64,000 nt of DNA from Escherichia phage UE-S5b, in the sequence record PP301341.1; one strand, given 5' to 3'. Of the stretch, positions 5,194 through 13,538 are shown one piece after another (the stretch's first letter is position 1; every line of letters begins with the position of its first letter). Position numbers and translations under genes: made by a program. The notes beneath the pieces were generated by a model. It was given only the letters and a program-made list of their open reading frames with translations. It was not told the DNA's origin and searched no databases.

Positions 5194-5904
5194 ATGCAAA
5201 AATTATCGGAAGTATACCGTGGCTTGGCACTAAGTACCTTGAAGGGTACTGGTGCAGTCACGGATGACAGATTGGGTATTGAGCCTGATAGTAAGCCTGA
5301 GATACTGGCAGCTATTAATGAAGGATTGGTTCGACTGCATAGTCGTTTCCCTCTCAGAACTAATAGTTGTATTGTGGAGATGAAAGAAGGGCGTACCGAT
5401 TATCCTCTTCAATCCAGATATGCTTACTCCAGATTTACTAAGCCCACTCTTGAGGTTCAGTATCCATACATCATGGATGGGTTCATGAAACCTTTCCAGG
5501 ATGATGTTATTAAAATCTTAAATGTATTTGATAACTCAGGGAACCGACGTAGACTGAACGATGATTCGGACCCTCGTGCTATCTTCACTCCACGGCCTGA
5601 TACTATTCAGTGTATGCGTCCTCGACACTTTGAGGCACTTAACGTAATGTATCAAGCCAAGCACCCAGTGCTTACGGGTGATGAAGAACAGGAAGTTGAT
5701 TTAGCTGATACGCTAATGACGGCACTTCATAACTGGGTGGGTTATCGTTACCACACCGGTTTGAATACTCCGGAAGCTAACGCTAAAGCAGCAGAGCATC
5801 TGCAAACATATGAAAGCATCTGTGGTGAGGTTGTTGATTACGACCTGGCTAATGGAAGTATTTCAATTACCGAAACTAAATTTGAACAACGAGGATGGCG
5901 ATGA
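5194..5904 (+). CDS. virion structural protein (tail/adaptor-associated, unknown function)
   Basis: 236-aa ORF between terminase and tailspike, overlapping the next gene start. Confidence 0.5.
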   Translation: MQKLSEVYRGLALSTLKGTGAVTDDRLGIEPDSKPEILAAINEGLVRLHSRFPLRTNSCIVEMKEGRTDYPLQSRYAYSRFTKPTLEVQYPYIMDGFMKPFQDDVIKILNVFDNSGNRRRLNDDSDPRAIFTPRPDTIQCMRPRHFEALNVMYQAKHPVLTGDEEQEVDLADTLMTALHNWVGYRYHTGLNTPEANAKAAEHLQTYESICGEVVDYDLANGSISITETKFEQRGWR

Positions 5905-8900
5905 ACGCACATACCCCCTTTGATGCAAATCAGGATTGGACCAATCCATATTGTCATAACAGTTCCAATGACCAAATGGTGGATGCACTGCTTGGTAATG
6001 CTTACCATGTGGTTCGTACTGTGTACTGCAACCTGGGTAATCTTAAACTCCTGTATGATTTCCTGAACCAGTATGGGATGGTCATCGGTGTAAACTCTGA
6101 AGAGGAATTGAAGGCATTATCCACGCAGGTTAAATATTCCCGTATCTACGGTTTCTCCCGTGCAGGTGACCGGCAGGTAACTGATTACTTGTACGTAGAA
6201 GGTGATCGTACTGGCATCATCCCAGATGACTCAGAAGCAACTGGTTCGTGGATTACTGTTGCTACTTCTGGTTCCAATGGTGGTGGTACTTCTTCCAGTG
6301 AAGGTGCTTATATTCCTTGGGTATACAGCAATGGTTCTGCTACTGGTGGGGAAACCACAATCAACGTACCAGATGGTACGGTGGGTGTACCTTTCATTAT
6401 TGTTAATGGCGACATGCAGTATGTAGGTCGTGGATTTGAGTTCAACGTAGACAGCCTGTCCGTAACTCTGGCNCAACCTTTAGAGGAAGGNGATGAAGTA
6501 GTATTCCTTCTGACTGGTGTTCCTGCTGTACCGGATAATCCTAACATTAATGACTGGATTCAGATCAATTGGTTGTACAACAATGGTGCTGCTGTAGGGG
6601 GTGAGCAGGTTATTGCTATTCCGTATACCTTCCAGTCTATTCCGGCTGTGTATAAGAATGGTCTTCGTTTGTATAAAGGATTAACTACTGAGTCTTATAC
6701 TGCTGACCCAGATAACCAACGTATTTTTCTTACCGAACCACTGACAACCAATGATCGTTTGATAGTACAGATTGGTGGTGAAGCACGAGTATTGGAAGCA
6801 ACAGATCGTACTCTACAGGAAGTGGCTCGTGCGGCTAATGTAAAAGATTCTGAGGTTATTCTCAGTACTAATACAGTACAATCCTTAAATAACAAAAAAG
6901 TTATTTATAATCCCGATAATCAGCAGATTTACGTTATTCCAGAATTACCAACTAATGTGTATATATCCAGCGTAGTTGGTAATATCCTTACATATACTCC
7001 AGGTAACATTCAGGTTGAGTTACTAACCAAAAAAGAAACTGACCAAAATACCCTATGGCGTAATCAGGGAGATGTCCGTGGTTGGGGTGTTAAAGGGGAC
7101 GCTGTGCATGATGATACAGTAGCATTAACGAACGTATTAAACGACACACCAGTTGGACAAAAGATTAATGGCAATGGGAAGACATATAAGGTCACATCCT
7201 TGCCTGATATTAGTCGATTCGTCAACACTCGTTTTGTTTATGAGCGTATTCCTGGTCAGCCGCTTTATTATGCCTCTGAAGAATTTGTTCAGGGCGAGCT
7301 TTTCAAAATAACGGACACCCCTTATTACAATGCGTGGCCACAGGATAAAGCGTTCGTTTACGATGATGTTATTTACTGCCCGTTCATGGCTAGTGATAGA
7401 CATGGGGTCAGCAGGCTGCATGTATCCTGGGTTCGTTCAGGGGATGACGGACAGACCTGGACAACGCCGGAATGGTTAACCGACCTACATCCTGATTACC
7501 CGACAGTTAACTACCACTGTATGAGTATGGGGGTGATGCGTAATCGTCTCTTTGCGATGATTGAGACACGTACTTTAGCATCTAACGCACTGGTGACCTG
7601 TGAGATATGGGACCGTCCTATGTCCCGTAATTACCATCCGACAGGTGGTATCACAAAAGCCGCTAATCAGCCTGTGGCTGTAATTACTATTCCTGACCAT
7701 GGATTGTTTGCCGGAGATTTTGTTAACTTCTCGAACTCTGGGGTGACTGGTGTTTCGGGGAATATGACTGTAACTTCAGTTATTGACCGCAACACATTTA
7801 CTGTCACCACGCCAAATCAACAGGAATCTGACCAAAATAACTCTACCAAAGTCTGGCATATGGGGACATCGTTCCACCAGTCACCTTGGCGTAAAACCAA
7901 CCTTGGACTGATTCCCATGGTTACCGAGGTTCACAGTTTTACCGCCATCAATAATGATTCATTTATGATGGGATATCACCAGGGTGATGCTGCTCCACGT
8001 GAAGTTGGTATGCTGTATTTCCCGGATGCATTTAACAATCCTGGGCATTATATAAAACGACGTATCCCTGCTGAATATGAGCCAGATGCGGCAGAACCCT
8101 GTGTTAAATATTTTGACGGTGTTCTTTATGTTGTAACCCGTGGAACTCGGTCGGATCGTCTGGGTAGTTCACTACATCGTAGTAACGATTTGGGTATATC
8201 CTGGCAATCATTGAGGTTCCCGAATAATGTCCACCACTCCACCCTGCCATTCGCTAAGGTAGGAAACGAACTCATTCTTTTTGGAACAGAACGTGCGGAC
8301 AACGAGTGGGAAGCAAACGCACCCGACCAGCGATATTTCAGTTCTTACCCGCGAACGTTTTACACACGAGTGAACTTAGACACCTGGAATCTGGATAATA
8401 CTCAGTGGGTGAATATCACTGACCAGATATATCAGGGTGGCATTGTCAACTCTGGCGTTGGTGTTGGCTCAGTGGTTGTTAAGGATAGTTATATCTATTA
8501 CATGTTCGGTGGGGAAGACCATCTGAACCCCTGGACATATGGAGATAACTCATCGAAAGACCCATTCAAATCAGATGGTCATCCATCAGATTTGTATTGC
8601 TACAAAATGAAGATTGGTTCAGACAATCGTGTTTCCAGGGATTTCAGATATGGTGCTGTACCTGACAGAGCTGTCCCCGTGTTTTTTGATACAAATGGGA
8701 TTCGCACTGTTCCTGCTCCAATGGAATTTACAGGAGATTTGGGTTTAGGTCATGTGACCCTTAGAGCCAGCACCAGTAGTAACATTCGCTCTGAAGTTTT
8801 AATGGAAGGTGAGTATGGGTTTATCGGGAAATCTGTACCGACTAATAACCCAGCAGGGCAGCGCATCATATTTTGCGGGGGAGACGGAACCAGTTCTTCT

Positions 8901-9548
8901 ACTGGTGCACAGATTACGCTTTACGGTGCGAGCAACACAGCTTCTCGCAGGATAGTTTACAACGGAAATGAACATCTGTTTCAGGGTGCTGATGTTAAGC
9001 CTTATAACGATAACGTCATTGCGCTTGGTGGACCAAGTAACCGTTTCACCACTGCATACCTCGGAAGTAACCCTATTGTTACTTCTAACGGGGAGAAGAA
9101 AACAGAGCCGGTAGTTTTTGATGATGCTTTCCTGGATGCCTGGGGTGACGTTCACTACATCATGTACCAGTGGTTAGATGCTGTTCAACTGAAAGGCAAT
9201 GATGCTCGTATTCACTTCGGGGTTATTGCTCAACAAATTCGTGATGTATTCATTGCACATGGTCTGATGGATGAAAACAGTACGAATTGTCGTTATGCTG
9301 TTCTGTGCTATGACAAGTATCCACGGATGACCGATACGGTATTTTCACACAATGAAATCGTTGAACACACTGACGAGGAGGGTAATGTCACTACTACGGA
9401 AGAACCTGTATACACCGAGGTGGTTATTCATGAAGAGGGTGAGGAGTGGGGTGTTCGGCCTGACGGAATTTTCTTTGCTGAAGCCGCTTATCAGAGAAGA
9501 AAACTGGAAAGAATCGAAGCCAGACTTTCTGCTCTTGAACAGAAGTAA
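5895..9548 (+). CDS. tailspike / tail fibre with C-terminal intramolecular chaperone (peptidase S74-like) domain
   Basis: 1217 aa; WRNQGDVRGWGVKGDAVHDDT (pectate-lyase-3-like start of a beta-helix); C-terminus PVVFDDAFLDAWGDVHYIMYQWLD...HFGVIAQQIRDVF matches the self-cleaving chaperone module of endosialidase-type tailspikes. Confidence 0.75.
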   Translation: MAMNAHTPFDANQDWTNPYCHNSSNDQMVDALLGNAYHVVRTVYCNLGNLKLLYDFLNQYGMVIGVNSEEELKALSTQVKYSRIYGFSRAGDRQVTDYLYVEGDRTGIIPDDSEATGSWITVATSGSNGGGTSSSEGAYIPWVYSNGSATGGETTINVPDGTVGVPFIIVNGDMQYVGRGFEFNVDSLSVTLXQPLEEXDEVVFLLTGVPAVPDNPNINDWIQINWLYNNGAAVGGEQVIAIPYTFQSIPAVYKNGLRLYKGLTTESYTADPDNQRIFLTEPLTTNDRLIVQIGGEARVLEATDRTLQEVARAANVKDSEVILSTNTVQSLNNKKVIYNPDNQQIYVIPELPTNVYISSVVGNILTYTPGNIQVELLTKKETDQNTLWRNQGDVRGWGVKGDAVHDDTVALTNVLNDTPVGQKINGNGKTYKVTSLPDISRFVNTRFVYERIPGQPLYYASEEFVQGELFKITDTPYYNAWPQDKAFVYDDVIYCPFMASDRHGVSRLHVSWVRSGDDGQTWTTPEWLTDLHPDYPTVNYHCMSMGVMRNRLFAMIETRTLASNALVTCEIWDRPMSRNYHPTGGITKAANQPVAVITIPDHGLFAGDFVNFSNSGVTGVSGNMTVTSVIDRNTFTVTTPNQQESDQNNSTKVWHMGTSFHQSPWRKTNLGLIPMVTEVHSFTAINNDSFMMGYHQGDAAPREVGMLYFPDAFNNPGHYIKRRIPAEYEPDAAEPCVKYFDGVLYVVTRGTRSDRLGSSLHRSNDLGISWQSLRFPNNVHHSTLPFAKVGNELILFGTERADNEWEANAPDQRYFSSYPRTFYTRVNLDTWNLDNTQWVNITDQIYQGGIVNSGVGVGSVVVKDSYIYYMFGGEDHLNPWTYGDNSSKDPFKSDGHPSDLYCYKMKIGSDNRVSRDFRYGAVPDRAVPVFFDTNGIRTVPAPMEFTGDLGLGHVTLRASTSSNIRSEVLMEGEYGFIGKSVPTNNPAGQRIIFCGGDGTSSSTGAQITLYGASNTASRRIVYNGNEHLFQGADVKPYNDNVIALGGPSNRFTTAYLGSNPIVTSNGEKKTEPVVFDDAFLDAWGDVHYIMYQWLDAVQLKGNDARIHFGVIAQQIRDVFIAHGLMDENSTNCRYAVLCYDKYPRMTDTVFSHNEIVEHTDEEGNVTTTEEPVYTEVVIHEEGEEWGVRPDGIFFAEAAYQRRKLERIEARLSALEQK

Positions 9549-9732
9549 TAAACAAAACCATTTTGCCATTAAGTTGGTGGAGGGGTGGATACGGTATTAG
9601 TTATGAGAAATCTCCCGTACTTAAGTGTGCATTTCTTCGTCGGCAATTGGAAAAATTTAAATAATCTTCCAATGTGTACATAAGGATATATTCGGCAAGG
9701 ACGCCATTAACCAGAAAAACAAAGAGGTTCTT

Positions 9733-12087
9733 ATGAACGAAATGTTCTCACAAGGTGGTAAAGGCTCCACTGGTATTCTTACCAACAAACAAGCCATTGC
9801 CCGTAAGTTTGGTGTTAAGCAGAATGAGGTTGTTTACTTTGCTGTAGGTGTAGACTTAGGGGAATACAAGGTCATTTATGATAAGACTACCCAGCGAGCT
9901 TACTCATTACCTGCAGACCTTGGTTCAGGGGTTACTGCTGTAAGCCTTAATACTGCCGGTGTGTTAGTTCACTCTACTGGTAATGTTGACCTGGGTGCAC
10001 TAGCTGTTTCACGAGGAGAGTTTATAACAGTCCCTGGGTCCTTCTCTTTGGGTTATGAGATTAAAGTAAAGAATGAATGTCTTGAATACCAGGGTGGGTT
10101 GTATCGATGGGATGGCGCACTGCCAAAGGTTGTAGATGCTGGGTCTGTTCCTGATATTGGTACAGGAAAGTGGCTGAGCGTCGGTGATGCAGCCCTGCGC
10201 AGCCAGATTTCAGACCCGGATGGTGCGTCCAGTTACCCTGAATTGCAGATGGCAAGATGGCGTGATGAGGGTGATGTTCGAGGCTGGGGTGCTAAAGGGG
10301 ATGGTGTAACAGATAGTACGGAGAATATAGCTGCTTCACTAAATTCTCAAAAAGCTGTCGTAGCATCAGACGGTGTATTCTCTAGTTCTGGTATTAATAG
10401 TAATTACTGTAACTTAGACGGTAGAGGCAGTGGTGTACTAAGTCACCGTTCAAGTACAGGTAACTACTTAGTATTTAACAATCTACGCTCAGGTCGCTTA
10501 AGTAATATTACGGTAGAAAGTAATAAGGCGACCGATACCACTCAAGGGCAGCAGGTATCTCTTGCTGGTGGCAGTGATGTTACTATAAGTGATGTTAATT
10601 TCTCAAACGTTAAGGGCGCTGGTTTCAGTTTAATCACATACCCTAATGATGCACCCTCTGATGGGCTTATGATTAAAGGCATTCGAGGTAGCTACTCCGG
10701 CTATGCTACTAATAAGGCGGCTGGATGCATACTTGCTGATTCCTCGGTTAACTCCCTCATAAATAACGTCATTGCTAAGAACTACCCTCAGTTCGGGGCT
10801 GTAGAACTGAAAGGTACAGCCAGTTATAACATAGTCAGCAATGTTATAGGGGCAGACTGCCAGCATGTAACTTACAACGGTACAAAAGGGTCAATAGCTC
10901 CCTCTAACAACCTTATCAATGGGGTAGTGGCTAATAATCCTAAATATGCAGCGGTTGTTGCAGGCAAAGGTAGTACCAACTTAATCTCAGATGTGCTTGT
11001 AGATTTCTCAATCTCTGACGCTAGTCAGGCTCACGGTGTTACAGTAGAAGGCTCTGATAACGTAATAAGCAATGTGCTTATGTCAGGATGTGATGGTACT
11101 AACTCTTTAGGGCAAGCTCAAACTGCTACAATTGCGCGCTTTATAGATACAGCTAATAACAACTATGCGTCTGTATTTCCTAGCTACAGTGCTACAGGTG
11201 TTATTACTTTCGAATCAGGTTCTACCCGTAACTTCGTAGAGGTAAAGCATCCGGGAAGGAGAAACGACCTTCTCAGTGCTACTGGTACTATTGAAGGTGC
11301 AGTTACTATTGACGGCACTAGTAATAGCAACGTAGTGCACGCACCTGCCTTAGGACAGTACATAGGTAGTATGTCAGGTCGGTTCGAATGGCGGATTAAG
11401 TCCATGTCACTTCCGTCAGGCGTTCTTACCTCGGCTGATAAATACAGAATGCTTGGGGATGGTGCTGTGTCATTAGCTGTAGGCGGGGGTACTTCTTCTC
11501 AAGTTCGCCTATTTACTTCTGATGGTACTTCTCGGACAGTATCACTCACCAACGGTAACGTGCGTCTTCCTACCAGTAGCACAGGTTATTTGCAGTTAGG
11601 TTCTGATGCAATGACCCCAGATAGTACTAATACATACGCATTAGGTTCCGCAAGTAGAGCATGGTCTGGCGGTTTTACTCAATCAGCATTCACTGTTGTC
11701 TCAGATGCTAGGGATAAAACAGAGCCTCTTAATATCTCAGATGCTTTACTGGATGCTTGGTCTGAAGTTGACTTTGTGCAGTTTCAGTACTTGGACAGGA
11801 TTGAGGAGAAGGGTGCAGACTCAGCCAGATGGCACTTTGGTATCATCGCTCAGCGAGCTAAGGAGGCTTTCGAACGTCACGGCATAGATGCACATCGCTA
11901 TGGCTTCCTGTGCTTCGACAGTTGGGATGATGTATACGAGGAAGATGCCAATGGCTCTCGTAAACTGATTACACCAGCAGGTTCCCGCTACGGTATTCGT
12001 TACGAGGAAGTACTGATATTAGAGGCTGCGTTGATGCGGCGTACTATTAAGCGTATGCAGGAAGCATTAGCTGTTATGTCTAAGTGA
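9733..12087 (+). CDS. second tailspike, putative polysaccharide depolymerase (parallel beta-helix) with C-terminal S74-like chaperone domain
   Basis: 784 aa; RWRDEGDVRGWGAKGDGVTDST motif; repetitive beta-helix-like segments (NITVESN.., VTISDVNFSNVKG..); C-terminus SDARDKTEPLNISDALLDAWSEVDFVQFQYLD...HFGIIAQRAKEAF. AAAGAGG RBS before the ATG. Confidence 0.8.
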   Translation: MNEMFSQGGKGSTGILTNKQAIARKFGVKQNEVVYFAVGVDLGEYKVIYDKTTQRAYSLPADLGSGVTAVSLNTAGVLVHSTGNVDLGALAVSRGEFITVPGSFSLGYEIKVKNECLEYQGGLYRWDGALPKVVDAGSVPDIGTGKWLSVGDAALRSQISDPDGASSYPELQMARWRDEGDVRGWGAKGDGVTDSTENIAASLNSQKAVVASDGVFSSSGINSNYCNLDGRGSGVLSHRSSTGNYLVFNNLRSGRLSNITVESNKATDTTQGQQVSLAGGSDVTISDVNFSNVKGAGFSLITYPNDAPSDGLMIKGIRGSYSGYATNKAAGCILADSSVNSLINNVIAKNYPQFGAVELKGTASYNIVSNVIGADCQHVTYNGTKGSIAPSNNLINGVVANNPKYAAVVAGKGSTNLISDVLVDFSISDASQAHGVTVEGSDNVISNVLMSGCDGTNSLGQAQTATIARFIDTANNNYASVFPSYSATGVITFESGSTRNFVEVKHPGRRNDLLSATGTIEGAVTIDGTSNSNVVHAPALGQYIGSMSGRFEWRIKSMSLPSGVLTSADKYRMLGDGAVSLAVGGGTSSQVRLFTSDGTSRTVSLTNGNVRLPTSSTGYLQLGSDAMTPDSTNTYALGSASRAWSGGFTQSAFTVVSDARDKTEPLNISDALLDAWSEVDFVQFQYLDRIEEKGADSARWHFGIIAQRAKEAFERHGIDAHRYGFLCFDSWDDVYEEDANGSRKLITPAGSRYGIRYEEVLILEAALMRRTIKRMQEALAVMSK

Positions 12088-12169
12088 GTAATACTGGTAC
12101 GGTTAGATCAGTAGAGTTGGTTAACAGTAGCCTACGTACTACCAGGCTATTACTTATCTAGGTATAAAA

Positions 12170-12194
12170 CCCCGCTCAGGCGGGGTTTGTTTTT
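12170..12194. terminator. bidirectional rho-independent terminator
   Basis: AAAA-CCCCGC-tcag-GCGGGG-TTTGTTTTT between convergent genes 9733..12087 (+) and 12213..12840 (-). Confidence 0.6.
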
Positions 12195-12212
12195 ATCTAT
12201 TAATAATATTTC

Positions 12213-12840
12213 TTATATAGAGTTTACTGTTTGCATTGCCCTAATTGATACTGCTGTTAGGGTAATTACTTGTCCTGAGATATTAAACATACCTAACTGA
12301 ATACCGTCTACCATGAAAGGGTCAGTTGAACCAAGTGTGTAAGTAGCCAGTACGTTATCTCTGTTAGCAATGTCTGTACCCTGTACTTTAACACTAGCAT
12401 CTGAACCTACTATCGTAATTCCATTGGTTCGTCTTGTTTGTGTTCTCCATTCCCTTGCTGTACCTGCACCACCTGCAATAATTCCTGATATACGAACACT
12501 GAACATTACCTGGGTATTCCTGGTTCTAATGGGGAACTTAAGATTTCCTTCTTCAATTGTTAGTGCTGCTGTACCTCCAGGTGATTTAGTTATCCCTGGT
12601 AATGAAAAGTAATTGAACCAGGATTGGTCATTTACTGCCTGGCTCCCGGTCCATGTATACAAGTCCAGAAGNAATGTGTCTTCTAACTCTGTTGGTGGGA
12701 AAGGTAGTAGTTCTGGGGGGATCTCTGAGATGTTATTAGCAGAAACTATTCGTTCCCCATAACTTCCCACGACCAACAATCCCCCCTTCATTTTGCACAC
12801 AACATCCNTACCACTTTGGAAAATATCTTTAATAGACATA
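12213..12840 (-). CDS. hypothetical protein on the opposite strand inside the late module
   Basis: About 209 aa from ATG 12840 (MSIKDIF...) with GAGGT RBS; beta-rich, Gly/Thr-rich; contains two N codons. Confidence 0.5.
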
Positions 12841-12858
12841 GTTACCTCGCAGTTGATA

Positions 12859-12875
12859 CCAGACACTATGTCTGG
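12859..12875. promoter_or_regulatory. perfect palindrome CCAGAC-actat-GTCTGG in a divergent intergenic region (candidate operator)
   Basis: 17-bp inverted repeat read directly, between the minus-strand gene start and the lysis cassette. Confidence 0.3.
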
Positions 12876-12963: not shown

Positions 12964-13293
12964 ATGAATGAATCGGGCGAACTGCTTCTAGTCAGACTGG
13001 AGGAACGATTGAAGACTCTGTTTGAGAATCAGACGAGAGACAGACAGGACCGTGAGAAACTGGAGGAAACTCTGGGAGAATTACGGGATTCAATCAATGA
13101 CATAGGCAATAGACTAAAAAATGTGGAGGATAGCTTAGCTAAGAATGAACCTACTATTGAAGAGTTCATCACCATTAAGCATAAAGTTGTTGGTGCTGGA
13201 ATTTTTGGTAAGTGGGTATGGGCTGGAGCAGGTGCAATTATTGGTGTATTGGCTGCTGCAAGACGGGAGATATTCGCATGGTTCGCAGGCTAA
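12964..13293 (+). CDS. putative lysis-associated membrane protein (N-terminal coiled coil, C-terminal transmembrane segment)
   Basis: 109 aa; charged heptad-like N-terminus, then VVGAGIFGKWVWAGAGAIIGVLAAA hydrophobic stretch; first gene of the lysis cluster. Confidence 0.45.
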   Translation: MNESGELLLVRLEERLKTLFENQTRDRQDREKLEETLGELRDSINDIGNRLKNVEDSLAKNEPTIEEFITIKHKVVGAGIFGKWVWAGAGAIIGVLAAARREIFAWFAG

Positions 13294-13538
13294 AAAGAAA
13301 AGTAGAGTTAGTACCTAACTGGAAAAGNTGNTGGAANTGGGCATCCATTCANATTAGTACNNTTGGTTTANTTCTATTNTCNGCTNTAGATATNATCCAA
13401 CCAATGGTGACAGGATTACCTCGTCACATCTTGGAAGATATTCCCCATGGTTCCAATATTGCAATCGCACTGTTTGCCTTAAACATCATAGGCAGATTAA
13501 TACGATTCCGACCAAAGGAAGATTCACATGAAAGCTAA
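13278..13538 (+). CDS. putative holin (small membrane protein; sequence heavily N-masked)
   Basis: About 86 aa from ATG 13278 (MVRRLKRK...); hydrophobic segments; directly upstream of and overlapping the endolysin start; many N bases at 13328-13394. Confidence 0.4.
   Translation: MVRRLKRKVELVPNWKXXWXWASIXISXXGLXLXXAXDXIQPMVTGLPRHILEDIPHGSNIAIALFALNIIGRLIRFRPKEDSHES

What the first reader, a model, noticed from the sequence alone, without database searches (positions are those of the whole stretch)
5895..12087. Two tailspikes sharing an N-terminal pectate-lyase-like motif and C-terminal self-cleaving chaperone domains
Both large proteins carry DVRGWG(V/A)KGD(A/G)V.D.T near the start of a beta-helix and end with the conserved module (F/L)LDAW..V....(Y/F)Q(W/Y)LD...HFG(V/I)IAQ. 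The second has SDARDK at the expected Ser-Lys autocleavage position. Dual depolymerase-type spikes imply recognition of two surface polysaccharides.
Basis: partly seen in the sequence, partly recalled or inferred. Interest (0 to 1): 0.5.

Follow-up and report, generated by a model that had tools for sequence, protein, structure and literature searches.

The report
K1 endosialidase plus K5 lyase tailspikes
These two genes encode the two tailspikes of a published G7C-like (N4-like) E. coli phage, a K1-capsule endosialidase and a K5-capsule lyase that each end in a self-cleaving folding chaperone, so the finding is real but already known.

Summary
Both motifs occur exactly as described, and only in these two ORFs of the 64-kb window.

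The window is 99.9% identical to Escherichia phages UE-M3, UE-M6 and UE-S5a (Gamaleyavirus, Schitoviridae; Virol J 2025). There the genes are annotated endosialidase and K5 lyase, and both proteins were detected in virions.

- **Protein 1** (5901-9548): a G7C gp66-type N-terminal anchor and branching module (69% identity), then a K1F-type endosialidase head and stalk (84%), then its C-terminal chaperone (99%).
- **Protein 2** (9733-12087): a G7C gp63.1-type docking module (61%), then a K5 lyase (92-95%) with its own chaperone.

Pfam Peptidase_S74 passes threshold in both proteins. The Ser-Lys dyad aligns with endoNF S911/K916: S1064/K1069 in protein 1, S657/K662 in protein 2.

One correction is needed. 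The shared DVRGWGxKGD motif is the end of a conserved tailspike neck linker at the junction between anchor and head modules. In protein 2 it leads into a beta-helix. In protein 1 it leads into the endosialidase N-terminal extension and a beta-propeller, not a pectate-lyase fold.

Functionally this is the K1-5 dual-capsule strategy carried on a G7C anchor-branched chassis. That combination is uncommon and undiscussed in print, but every component is a well-characterised family. Interest is low.

The parts
5194..5904 (+). Upstream virion protein (G7C gp67 / N4 30-kDa virion protein type, annotated 'adaptor protein'). Same position as in G7C.
   Evidence: phrog_2125 E 6.5e-91. Pfam SU10_adaptor 26.7 bits, just under the cut-off of 27. 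Synteny with G7C gp67. UE-M3 annotation.
5901..9548 (+). Tailspike 1 precursor: gp66-type anchor fused to a K1F-type endosialidase and a C-terminal chaperone. 1215 aa from ATG 5901; the ORF lister starts it at 5895.
5901..7061 (+). N-terminal particle-anchor and branching module (aa 3-389). Includes the T4 gp10-like D2/D3 domains (about aa 140-296, nt 6312-6782) that dock the second spike in G7C.
   Evidence: 69% identity to G7C gp66 aa 1-388. PDB 9d80_D (Moo19 gp82) E 5.5e-150 and 9d83_D (B2 gp49) E 1.2e-135. The gp63.1-binding region of gp66 is residues 138-294 (PMC6872550).
7071..7118 (+). Shared motif DVRGWGVKGDAVHDDT at the junction between the gp66-like and K1F-like parts.
   Evidence: Nucleotide identity switches from G7C-like to K1F-like at gene nt ~1140-1200. 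Alignments.
7092..9083 (+). Endosialidase head and stalk (aa 400-1063): End_N_terminal 400-465, beta-propeller 466-907 with a beta-barrel insert 577-659, and stalk 910-1063.
   Evidence: Pfam E 9.8e-36, 4.4e-205, 4.1e-42 and 3.1e-78. PDB 1v0e/3gvl, E = 0. 83.8% identity to K1F aa 246-910, with H350, E581, R596, R647, R837, S848, Q853 and R897 all conserved.
9084..9548 (+). C-terminal intramolecular chaperone of tailspike 1 (aa 1064-1217, about 17.8 kDa). Predicted cleavage T1063|S1064; dyad S1064/K1069.
   Evidence: Pfam Peptidase_S74 36.6 bits. PDB 3gw6 E 3.3e-180. 99.4% identity to the K1F CTD. The K1F record marks the mature peptide as ending at aa 910 and the CTD as starting at S911.
9549..9732 (+). 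184-nt spacer. The first 32 nt are the 3' flank of K1F gene 17. The last ~20 nt (AGAAAAACAAAGAGGTT) are the Gamaleyavirus ribosome-binding region. No terminator hairpin.
9733..12087 (+). Tailspike 2 precursor: gp63.1-type docking module fused to a K5 lyase and a C-terminal chaperone (784 aa).
9733..10227 (+). N-terminal docking module (aa 1-~165) of the G7C gp63.1 / CBA120 TSP1 / B2 gp48 type. Includes Pfam Tail_spike_N at aa 91-152.
   Evidence: 61% identity to gp63.1, 80% over aa 1-100. PDB 4oj5 E 8.2e-70, 9d84_A E 5.2e-60, 4qnl E 5e-59. Pfam PF18668 E 1.2e-12.
10273..10320 (+). Shared motif DVRGWGAKGDGVTDST. It marks the start of the near-identical Kayfunavirus-type K5-lyase cassette, and the start of similarity to the K1-5 lyase (aa 183).
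   Evidence: Sub-threshold PF12708 hit confined to aa 182-208.
10282..11700 (+). K5 (heparosan) lyase body (aa 184-656): single-stranded right-handed beta-helix followed by a triple-stranded C-terminal part.
   Evidence: PDB 2x3h E 2.8e-279, ungapped over 474 aa. PDB 9vvr E = 0. 91.8% identity to K1-5 gp46 and 94.7% to IME177.
11701..12087 (+). C-terminal intramolecular chaperone of tailspike 2 (aa 657-784, about 14.8 kDa). Predicted cleavage V656|S657; dyad S657/K662.
   Evidence: Pfam Peptidase_S74 52.9 bits. PDB 3gud E 2.5e-22 and 3gw6 E 4.2e-19. 100% identity to the IME177 CTD and 95% to the K1-5 lyase CTD.
12167..12198 (+). Terminator-like GC hairpin plus T run that ends the tailspike transcription unit. 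Related to the hairpins after gp66 and gp63.1 in G7C.

Best explanation
The region encodes the two-armed receptor-binding complex of a G7C-like (Gamaleyavirus, N4-like) podovirus.

**Tailspike 1.** It is anchored to the tail by its gp66-type N-terminal module. Distally it carries a K1F-type endo-alpha-2,8-sialidase that binds and cuts the K1 polysialic-acid capsule.

**Tailspike 2.** It does not touch the tail. Its gp63.1-type N-terminal module docks on the T4 gp10-like domain of tailspike 1. Its body is a KflA-type beta-helical lyase that cuts K5 heparosan by beta-elimination.

**Maturation.** Each precursor ends in an S74 intramolecular chaperone. This drives trimerisation of the preceding triple beta-helix or stalk and then removes itself with a Ser-Lys dyad. 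The predicted cuts are T1063|S1064 in tailspike 1 and V656|S657 in tailspike 2. Predicted masses are 135 -> 118 + 18 kDa and 83 -> 68 + 15 kDa.

**Origin.** Both enzymatic cassettes were captured from T7-like (Kayfunavirus) K1 and K5 phages. The recombination joints lie in a conserved neck linker (...WR..GDVRGWGxKGD...), which is the 'shared motif'.

**What is shown and what is inferred.** The domain identities, module boundaries, conserved catalytic and cleavage residues, and (from the publication) presence of both proteins in virions are shown. The 1:1 branched assembly, the autocleavage, and the K1 and K5 specificity of these particular proteins are inferred by homology.
For: **Identity of the phage**
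- 99.9% identity over the whole 6.2 kb to UE-M3, UE-M6 and UE-S5a, annotated endosialidase and K5 lyase.
- Both proteins were detected by LC-MS/MS in purified particles, and plaques have haloes (PMC11927229).

**Enzyme heads**
- Pfam endosialidase domains and S74.
- PDB matches to endoNF, its chaperone domain, KflA and the full-length K5 spike 9vvr.
- All endoNF catalytic, binding and cleavage residues are conserved.
- The S911/K916 dyad and the R897 role come from PMC8326128. The K1F record gives the cleavage point.

**Chassis**
- Synteny matches G7C: gp67, gp66, gp63.1, gp63, holin.
- Tailspike 1 N-terminal module is 69% identical to gp66; tailspike 2 N-terminal module is 61% identical to gp63.1.
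- The homologous modules of phage B2 (gp49/gp48) copurify and were solved as a complex (PDB 9d83/9d84).
- The G7C anchor-branched model is described.

**Cassette capture**
- Identity profiles switch at the motif.
- 32 nt of K1F 3' flank are retained after the tailspike 1 stop codon.
- Sister phages PBM-2 and PBM-3 keep tailspike 1 but carry a different second spike.
Against: - No experiment on these proteins shows cleavage, K1 or K5 specificity, or the tailspike 1-tailspike 2 complex.
- The isolation host is O25:H4 and its capsule type is not stated.
- The endosialidase head is only 84% identical to endoNF, so fine specificity (for example O-acetylated polysialic acid) could differ.
- Individual KflA catalytic residues could not be checked, because the KflA structure paper is not held.
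- The arginine equivalent to endoNF R897 does not align cleanly in tailspike 2: R642 is one position off.
Confidence: 0.9

Rival explanations
1. The two spikes attach independently, or through a separate adapter as in K1-5/SP6 (gp37 plus short N-terminal peptides), rather than tailspike 2 docking on tailspike 1.
For: K1-5 carries the same enzyme pair on an adapter. No direct interaction data exist for this phage.
Against: - Tailspike 2 starts MNEMFSQGGKG..., not the K1-5 heptapeptide MAKLTKP. Tailspike 1 starts MNAHTPFD, not MIQRLGSSLVK.
- Both N-terminal modules are close homologues of the G7C gp66/gp63.1 and B2 gp49/gp48 pairs, which form stable complexes.
Confidence: 0.05
2. One or both heads have drifted to a different substrate, so the phage does not recognise K1 and K5 capsules as such.
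For: - The endosialidase head differs from endoNF at 16% of positions.
- The isolation host O25:H4 is not reported as K1 or K5.
- The UE phages differ in host range despite near-identical spikes.
Against: - Every known endoNF catalytic and sialic-acid-binding residue checked is conserved.
- The lyase is 92-95% identical to lyases of phages K5, K1-5 and K5-type Kayfunaviruses, without gaps.
Confidence: 0.07
3. The shared N-terminal motif marks a common pectate-lyase-3-type beta-helix catalytic fold in both proteins.
For: GAKGDGVTD resembles the first ~30 positions of PF12708, which hits tailspike 2 aa 182-208 at E 8.6e-5.
Against: - The hit is below Pfam's cut-off (22.9 against 27 bits) and confined to the motif.
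- Tailspike 1 gives no PF12708 hit. After the motif it is an endosialidase N-terminal extension plus beta-propeller, matching solved structures 1V0E/3GVL.
Confidence: 0.03

Closest known systems
Escherichia phages UE-M3 / UE-M6 / UE-S5a / UE-S5b (Gamaleyavirus; Virol J 2025, PMC11927229)
   Same: The same sequence (99.9% identity) with the same gene order. Annotated endosialidase and K5 lyase, and both found in virion proteomes.
   Different: Nothing substantive. The paper lists the proteins but, in the passages my keyword searches returned, does not mention the branched architecture, the chaperone domains, the module junctions or K1/K5 specificity; 'G7C', 'depolymerase' and 'K1-5' do not occur in its text.
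Phage K1-5 (Vectrevirus, SP6-like): gp46 K5 lyase plus gp47 K1 endosialidase
   Same: The same pair of capsule depolymerases on one virion, giving dual K1/K5 host range. The lyase is 92% identical from aa 183 on, and both proteins have S74 chaperones.
   Different: - K1-5 mounts both spikes on a separate adapter (gp37) through 7- and 11-residue N-terminal peptides. Here the endosialidase is itself the anchor and the lyase is the side branch.
- Gene order is reversed.
- The chassis is a ~74-kb N4-like phage, not a 44-kb SP6-like phage.
Phage G7C gp66 / gp63.1 anchor-branched complex (also B2 gp49/gp48 and the CBA120 TSP system)
   Same: The same N-terminal anchor, T4 gp10-like branching domains and docking module, and the same synteny.
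   Different: In G7C the distal domains are an uncharacterised gp66 head and an O-antigen deacetylase (SGNH esterase). Neither G7C protein aligns with the C-terminal chaperone segment present here. In this phage both distal domains are capsule depolymerases with chaperones.
K1F gp17 endoNF (PDB 1V0E, 3GVL, 3GW6) and Kayfunavirus/K5A KflA (PDB 2X3H, 9VVR)
   Same: Source families of the two heads, stalks and chaperones: 84% and 99% identity (endoNF head and CTD), 95% and 100% identity (IME177 lyase body and CTD).
   Different: Those proteins carry a T7 gp17-type N-terminal anchor. Here that anchor is replaced by G7C-type modules. Tailspike 1 also lacks the Tail_spike_N-type neck domain that precedes the head in K1F and related spikes.

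Membership tests
Bacteriophage endosialidase (endoNF type) | N-terminal extension, six-bladed beta-propeller with beta-barrel insert, and tailspike stalk domains | tested here: met
   PF12218, PF12217, PF12195 and PF12219 are all far above cut-off. PDB 1v0e/3gvl E = 0 over aa 398-1063.
Bacteriophage endosialidase (endoNF type) | Active-site residues E581, R596, R647 (and H350) and stalk binding site R837/S848/Q853. Residue list is from my own knowledge of Stummeyer 2005 and Schulz 2010. | tested here: met
   All are conserved at tailspike 1 positions 734, 749, 800, 503, 990, 1001 and 1006.
Bacteriophage endosialidase (endoNF type) | Cleavage of alpha-2,8-polysialic acid | not testable with these tools
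   Needs an enzyme assay.
Peptidase S74 / C-terminal intramolecular chaperone domain | Pfam PF13884 above the gathering score, located at the C-terminus after a triple beta-helix or stalk | tested here: met
   Tailspike 1: 36.6 bits. Tailspike 2: 52.9 bits. Cut-off is 22. PDB 3gw6 and 3gud matches.
Peptidase S74 / C-terminal intramolecular chaperone domain | Ser-x4-Lys catalytic dyad aligned with endoNF S911/K916 | tested here: met
   Tailspike 1: S1064/K1069. Tailspike 2: S657/K662. The dyad is defined in PMC8326128.
Peptidase S74 / C-terminal intramolecular chaperone domain | Stalk arginine (endoNF R897) that assists cleavage | tested here: inconclusive
   Conserved in tailspike 1 (R1050). 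In tailspike 2 the nearest Arg (R642) is offset by one position in the pairwise alignment.
Peptidase S74 / C-terminal intramolecular chaperone domain | Actual autoproteolytic release of the domain | not testable with these tools
   The virion proteomics tables of PMC11927229 are not held.
K5 lyase (KflA type) | Sequence and structure identity with the KflA beta-helix and C-terminal triple-stranded domain | tested here: met
   PDB 2x3h E 2.8e-279, ungapped over aa 184-657. PDB 9vvr E = 0. 92% identity to K1-5 gp46 and to the K5 phage lyase Y10025.
K5 lyase (KflA type) | Individual catalytic residues and heparosan beta-elimination activity | not tested
G7C-type anchor-branched receptor-binding complex | First RBP with an N-terminal anchor plus T4 gp10-like D2/D3 domains | tested here: met
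   69% identity to gp66 aa 1-388. Matches to B2 gp49 and Moo19 gp82 structures. Definition.
G7C-type anchor-branched receptor-binding complex | Second RBP with the gp63.1 / TSP1-type N-terminal docking module, encoded immediately downstream | tested here: met
G7C-type anchor-branched receptor-binding complex | Physical 1:1 complex of the two trimers | not testable with these tools
   Inferred from G7C and B2.
K1-5 / SP6 adapter system | Conserved N-terminal hepta- and undecapeptides (MAKLTKP, MIQRLGSSLVK) that bind a gp37 adapter | tested here: not met
   The N-termini are MNEMFSQGGKG and MNAHTPFDANQ. The peptides are defined.
Pectate_lyase_3 / Pect-lyase_RHGA_epim (PF12708) | Pfam match above the gathering score | tested here: not met
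   Tailspike 2: 22.9 bits against 27, motif only. Tailspike 1: no hit at E<=10.

The most novel reading that the evidence does not exclude
This would be the first recognised case of a G7C-type anchor-branched N4-like virion in which both arms are capsule depolymerases for the two host-mimicking E. coli capsules, K1 polysialic acid and K5 heparosan.

It appears to have been assembled recently by capturing cassettes from T7-like Kayfunaviruses. Segments of 98-100% nucleotide identity remain, and 32 nt of K1F 3' flank are retained.

The joints fall in a conserved neck linker (WR..GDVRGWGxKGD). That linker could therefore act as a natural, portable splice point for swapping tailspike heads between unrelated podovirus families, and could be used for engineering.
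Probability: 0.35. Interest if true: 0.35.

Novelty: already known. Interest (0 to 1): 0.2.

Why it matters
K1 and K5 capsules mimic host glycans and are major virulence factors of extraintestinal E. coli. A single phage carrying both depolymerases is therefore useful for therapy and as an enzyme source.

The locus is also a clean natural example of tailspike head-swapping between T7-like and N4-like phages at a defined linker. That is practical guidance for receptor-binding-protein engineering.

None of this changes current understanding. The enzymes, the chaperone mechanism, dual-spike phages and the G7C branching scheme are all established, and this exact sequence is already published and annotated.

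Tried and rejected
- **PF12708 on the motif segments at E<=10.** Only a sub-threshold hit in tailspike 2 and none in tailspike 1, so the pectate-lyase reading was rejected for tailspike 1.
- **NCBIfam.** No hits for either spike.
- **PDB-code literature search** (9D80, 9D83, 9D84, 9VVR). Only irrelevant papers came back. The B2/Moo19 origin of the 9d8x entries was inferred from molecule names and sizes.
- **KflA structure paper (PMC2911314).** Not held, so individual KflA catalytic residues were not checked.
- **Supplementary proteomics tables of the UE-phage paper.** Not held, so absence of chaperone-domain peptides in virions could not be checked.
- **G7C 'repeat_region' features flanking gp63.1.** These turned out to be ordinary GC-hairpin terminators, not recombination repeats. 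Only one copy is present here.
- **Direct and inverted repeat search around tailspike 2.** Only short chance-level matches.
- **Exact shared DNA words between the two genes.** Nothing of 14 nt or more, so there is no evidence of ongoing gene conversion between them.
- **IMG/VR scan for the gp66N::endosialidase junction.** No contig has it.
- **Phage ES17 (heparan-sulfate-binding 'K5-lyase-like' fibre).** It is a Kuravirus with only remote structural similarity, so it is not a close relative.
Full report
**1. The observation**

The region holds two long + strand ORFs, 5895-9548 (1217 aa) and 9733-12087 (784 aa). I call them P1 and P2 below.
- DVRGWG[VA]KGD[AG]V.D.T at nt 7071 and nt 10273.
- [FL]LDAW..V....[YF]Q[WY]LD at nt 9129 and nt 11746.
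- HFG[VI]IAQ at nt 9213 and nt 11833.
- Ser-x4-Lys-TEP at nt 9084 (SNGEKKTEP) and nt 11701 (SDARDKTEP).

BLASTP of one protein against the other gives E 4e-26 over the last ~230 residues and E 1e-7 over the 33-residue N-terminal motif stretch. The similarities are therefore real homology.

One coordinate needs correcting. The first gene most likely starts at ATG 5901. A GAGG lies at 5891-5894, the start overlaps the upstream stop as ATGA, and G7C gp66 and the GenBank CDS both start MNAHTPFD.

**2. Where the window comes from**

The 6.2-kb stretch is 99.9% identical, end to end and at the same coordinates, to Escherichia phages UE-M3, UE-M6 and UE-S5a. These are Schitoviridae, Enquatrovirinae, genus Gamaleyavirus, that is G7C-like N4-like podoviruses. 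The two genes are annotated 'endosialidase' and 'K5 lyase'.

The describing paper (PMC11927229) reports three relevant things:
- Both proteins were detected in purified particles by LC-MS/MS.
- Plaques have haloes.
- The isolation host is a UPEC of serotype O25:H4.

In the passages my keyword searches returned, the paper does not mention capsule specificity, spike architecture or the chaperone domains; 'G7C', 'depolymerase' and 'K1-5' do not occur in its text.

**3. Anatomy of P1**

- *aa 3-389.* 69% identical to G7C gp66 aa 1-388. This stretch also matches the solved N-terminal modules of Moo19 gp82 (PDB 9d80_D, E 5.5e-150) and B2 gp49 (9d83_D, E 1.2e-135). In gp66 this part is the particle anchor plus the T4 gp10-like D2/D3 domains. 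Residues 138-294 are the binding site for the second spike.
- *aa 398-1063.* A K1F-type endosialidase. Pfam finds End_N_terminal (400-465), End_beta_propel (466-907), End_beta_barrel (577-659) and End_tail_spike (910-1063). PDB 1v0e/3gvl match at E = 0. Identity to K1F aa 246-910 is 83.8%. H350, E581, R596, R647, R837, S848, Q853 and R897 are all conserved (the residue list, apart from R897, is from my own knowledge of the endoNF literature).
- *aa 1064-1217.* The intramolecular chaperone. Pfam Peptidase_S74 scores 36.6 bits against a cut-off of 22. PDB 3gw6 matches at E 3.3e-180. Identity to the K1F C-terminal domain is 99.4%.

The K1F GenBank record marks mature gp17* as ending at residue 910 and the chaperone as starting at S911. 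S911/K916 form the catalytic dyad (PMC8326128). This maps to a cut at T1063|S1064 with K1069. The predicted products are about 118 kDa and 18 kDa.

**4. Anatomy of P2**

- *aa 1-~165.* 61% identical to G7C gp63.1, and 80% over the first 100 residues. It matches the N-terminal modules of CBA120 TSP1 (4oj5, E 8.2e-70), B2 gp48 (9d84_A, E 5.2e-60) and gp63.1 itself (4qnl, E 5e-59). It includes Pfam Tail_spike_N at 91-152.
- *aa 184-657.* Matches the KflA crystal structure 2x3h without gaps (E 2.8e-279). aa 102-784 match the full-length spike 9vvr.
- *Identity to other lyases.* 91.8% to K1-5 gp46 over aa 183-656, 94.7% to the Kayfunavirus IME177 spike over aa 168-656, and 100% to IME177 over the chaperone domain.
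- *aa 657-784.* The S74 domain (52.9 bits). S657/K662 align with the endoNF dyad. The predicted products are about 68 kDa and 15 kDa.

From my memory of Thompson et al. 2010, KflA is thought to be matured by an autochaperone like that of endoNF. That paper is not held, so I could not check individual KflA catalytic residues.

**5. What the shared N-terminal motif is**

It is not evidence of a common pectate-lyase fold.
- In P1 it falls in the first positions of Pfam End_N_terminal and is followed by a beta-propeller. PF12708 does not hit it even at E<=10.
- In P2, PF12708 hits only the motif (aa 182-208) and below threshold (22.9 against 27 bits). The body is nonetheless a right-handed beta-helix, as 2X3H shows.

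Alignment shows the motif is the C-terminal end of a conserved neck linker...YYRWDG.LPK.V..GSTP...G.G.WVSVGDA.LRSQ...P.GA..YP.LQ.ARWRD..D.RGW.AKGDG. The comparison set was K1F gp17, the Kayfunavirus K5 spike, and endosialidase spikes from IMG/VR contigs. This linker precedes the head in many tailspikes. P2 keeps the whole linker. P1 keeps only ...LWRNQGDVRGWGVKGDA, fused directly to the gp66-type module.

Sliding nucleotide identity shows the switch points:
- Gene 1 changes from G7C-like to K1F-like at gene nt ~1140-1200.
- Gene 2 becomes 98-100% identical to IME177 from gene nt ~510.

Both switch points sit at the motif. The K1-5 lyase similarity also starts exactly there, at aa 183. The motif therefore marks the anchor/head module junction.

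**6. Evidence for cassette capture**

- The first 32 nt after the P1 stop codon are 100% identical to the 3' flank of K1F gene 17.
- The last ~20 nt of the spacer match the G7C gp66-gp63.1 spacer and ribosome-binding region.
- Sister phages PBM-2 and PBM-3 keep P1 and the first ~100 residues of P2, then carry a different 892-aa second spike that also has an S74 domain.
- No IMG/VR viral contig contains the gp66N::endosialidase junction. In the phage collection only the UE and PBM isolates have it.
- A single terminator-like hairpin follows P2 at 12167-12188. G7C has the related hairpin after both spike genes.

**7. Mechanism**

The gene order is gp67-like, P1, P2, gp63-like, holin, endolysin. 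This is the G7C order gp67, gp66, gp63.1, gp63, holin, endolysin.

Two homologous systems support the assembly model. In G7C, gp63.1 binds the T4 gp10-like region of gp66, which is itself anchored to the particle. In B2, gp48/gp49 copurify and were solved together.

By homology, P1 is the anchored trimer that presents the endosialidase, and P2 is the side branch that presents the K5 lyase. Each trimer is folded by its C-terminal chaperone, which is then cut off.

The outcome is the dual K1/K5 capsule-degrading strategy known from phage K1-5, but with a different attachment logic. K1-5 uses a separate gp37 adapter and short N-terminal peptides, and those peptides are absent here.

The complex, the cleavage and the substrate specificities are inferred. 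Sequence identity, domain content, residue conservation and virion presence are shown.

**8. Verdict**

It is wrong about the pectate-lyase/beta-helix reading for the first protein.

The object is already in GenBank and in print with the same functional labels, and every module belongs to a structurally characterised family. The only mildly new angles are the G7C-type chassis for the K1/K5 pair and the linker as a recurrent splice point. I rate interest at 0.2 and novelty as already known.

Noticed in passing
window 12213-12866 (- strand): A 216-217-aa ORF on the opposite strand sits between the K5-lyase gene and the gp63-like gene. It matches phrog_17779 (unknown function) and has no Pfam or NCBIfam hit. 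It is absent at this position in G7C and PBM-3. It is present in Bp4, nithesis and N4-like Salmonella phages, where it is sometimes annotated 'protease'. Its C-terminal third also occurs in ~155-kb myoviruses. Residues 14-52 weakly resemble the B2 capsid decoration protein gp45 (PDB 9d82_J, E 0.021). UE-M3 annotates it 'tail needle knob'.
   Followed up: partly
window 5891-5904: The first tailspike gene most likely starts at ATG 5901, not 5895. A GAGG lies 6 nt upstream, the ATGA overlaps the stop of the upstream gene, and this agrees with G7C gp66 and the GenBank CDS.
   Followed up: yes
window 9549-9732: The 184-nt spacer between the spike genes is a mosaic. The first 32 nt are 100% identical to the K1F gene 17 3' flank. 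The last ~20 nt match the G7C ribosome-binding region. The middle ~130 nt match only the UE and PBM sister phages.
   Followed up: partly
window 6312-6782 (P1 aa ~140-296): An internal tandem duplication of a ~85-aa domain (IPWVYSNGSATGGETTI... and INWLYNNGAAVGGEQVI...). This corresponds to the T4 gp10-like D2/D3 (XD2/XD3) domains. In G7C only one of the two potential docking sites is reported to be occupied.
   Followed up: partly
L004 (PBM-3) 8839-11517: Sister phage PBM-3 has the same endosialidase anchor spike but a different 892-aa second spike with its own S74 domain. That second spike is annotated 'endo-N-acetylneuraminidase', probably because of the chaperone domain. The true endosialidase is labelled only 'tail spike protein'.
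   Followed up: partly
window 13328-13394 and elsewhere: The window contains 65 N bases. Two fall in P1 (6473, 6491), two in the reverse ORF, and ten are clustered in the holin gene region. They produce X residues in translations but do not affect any conclusion.
   Followed up: no
window 12964-13293: The gp63-like 109-aa ORF (phrog_5211, unknown function) is annotated 'tail needle protein gp26' in UE-M3 and 'tail length tape-measure protein' in PBM-3. Neither label was supported by anything I ran.
   Followed up: no
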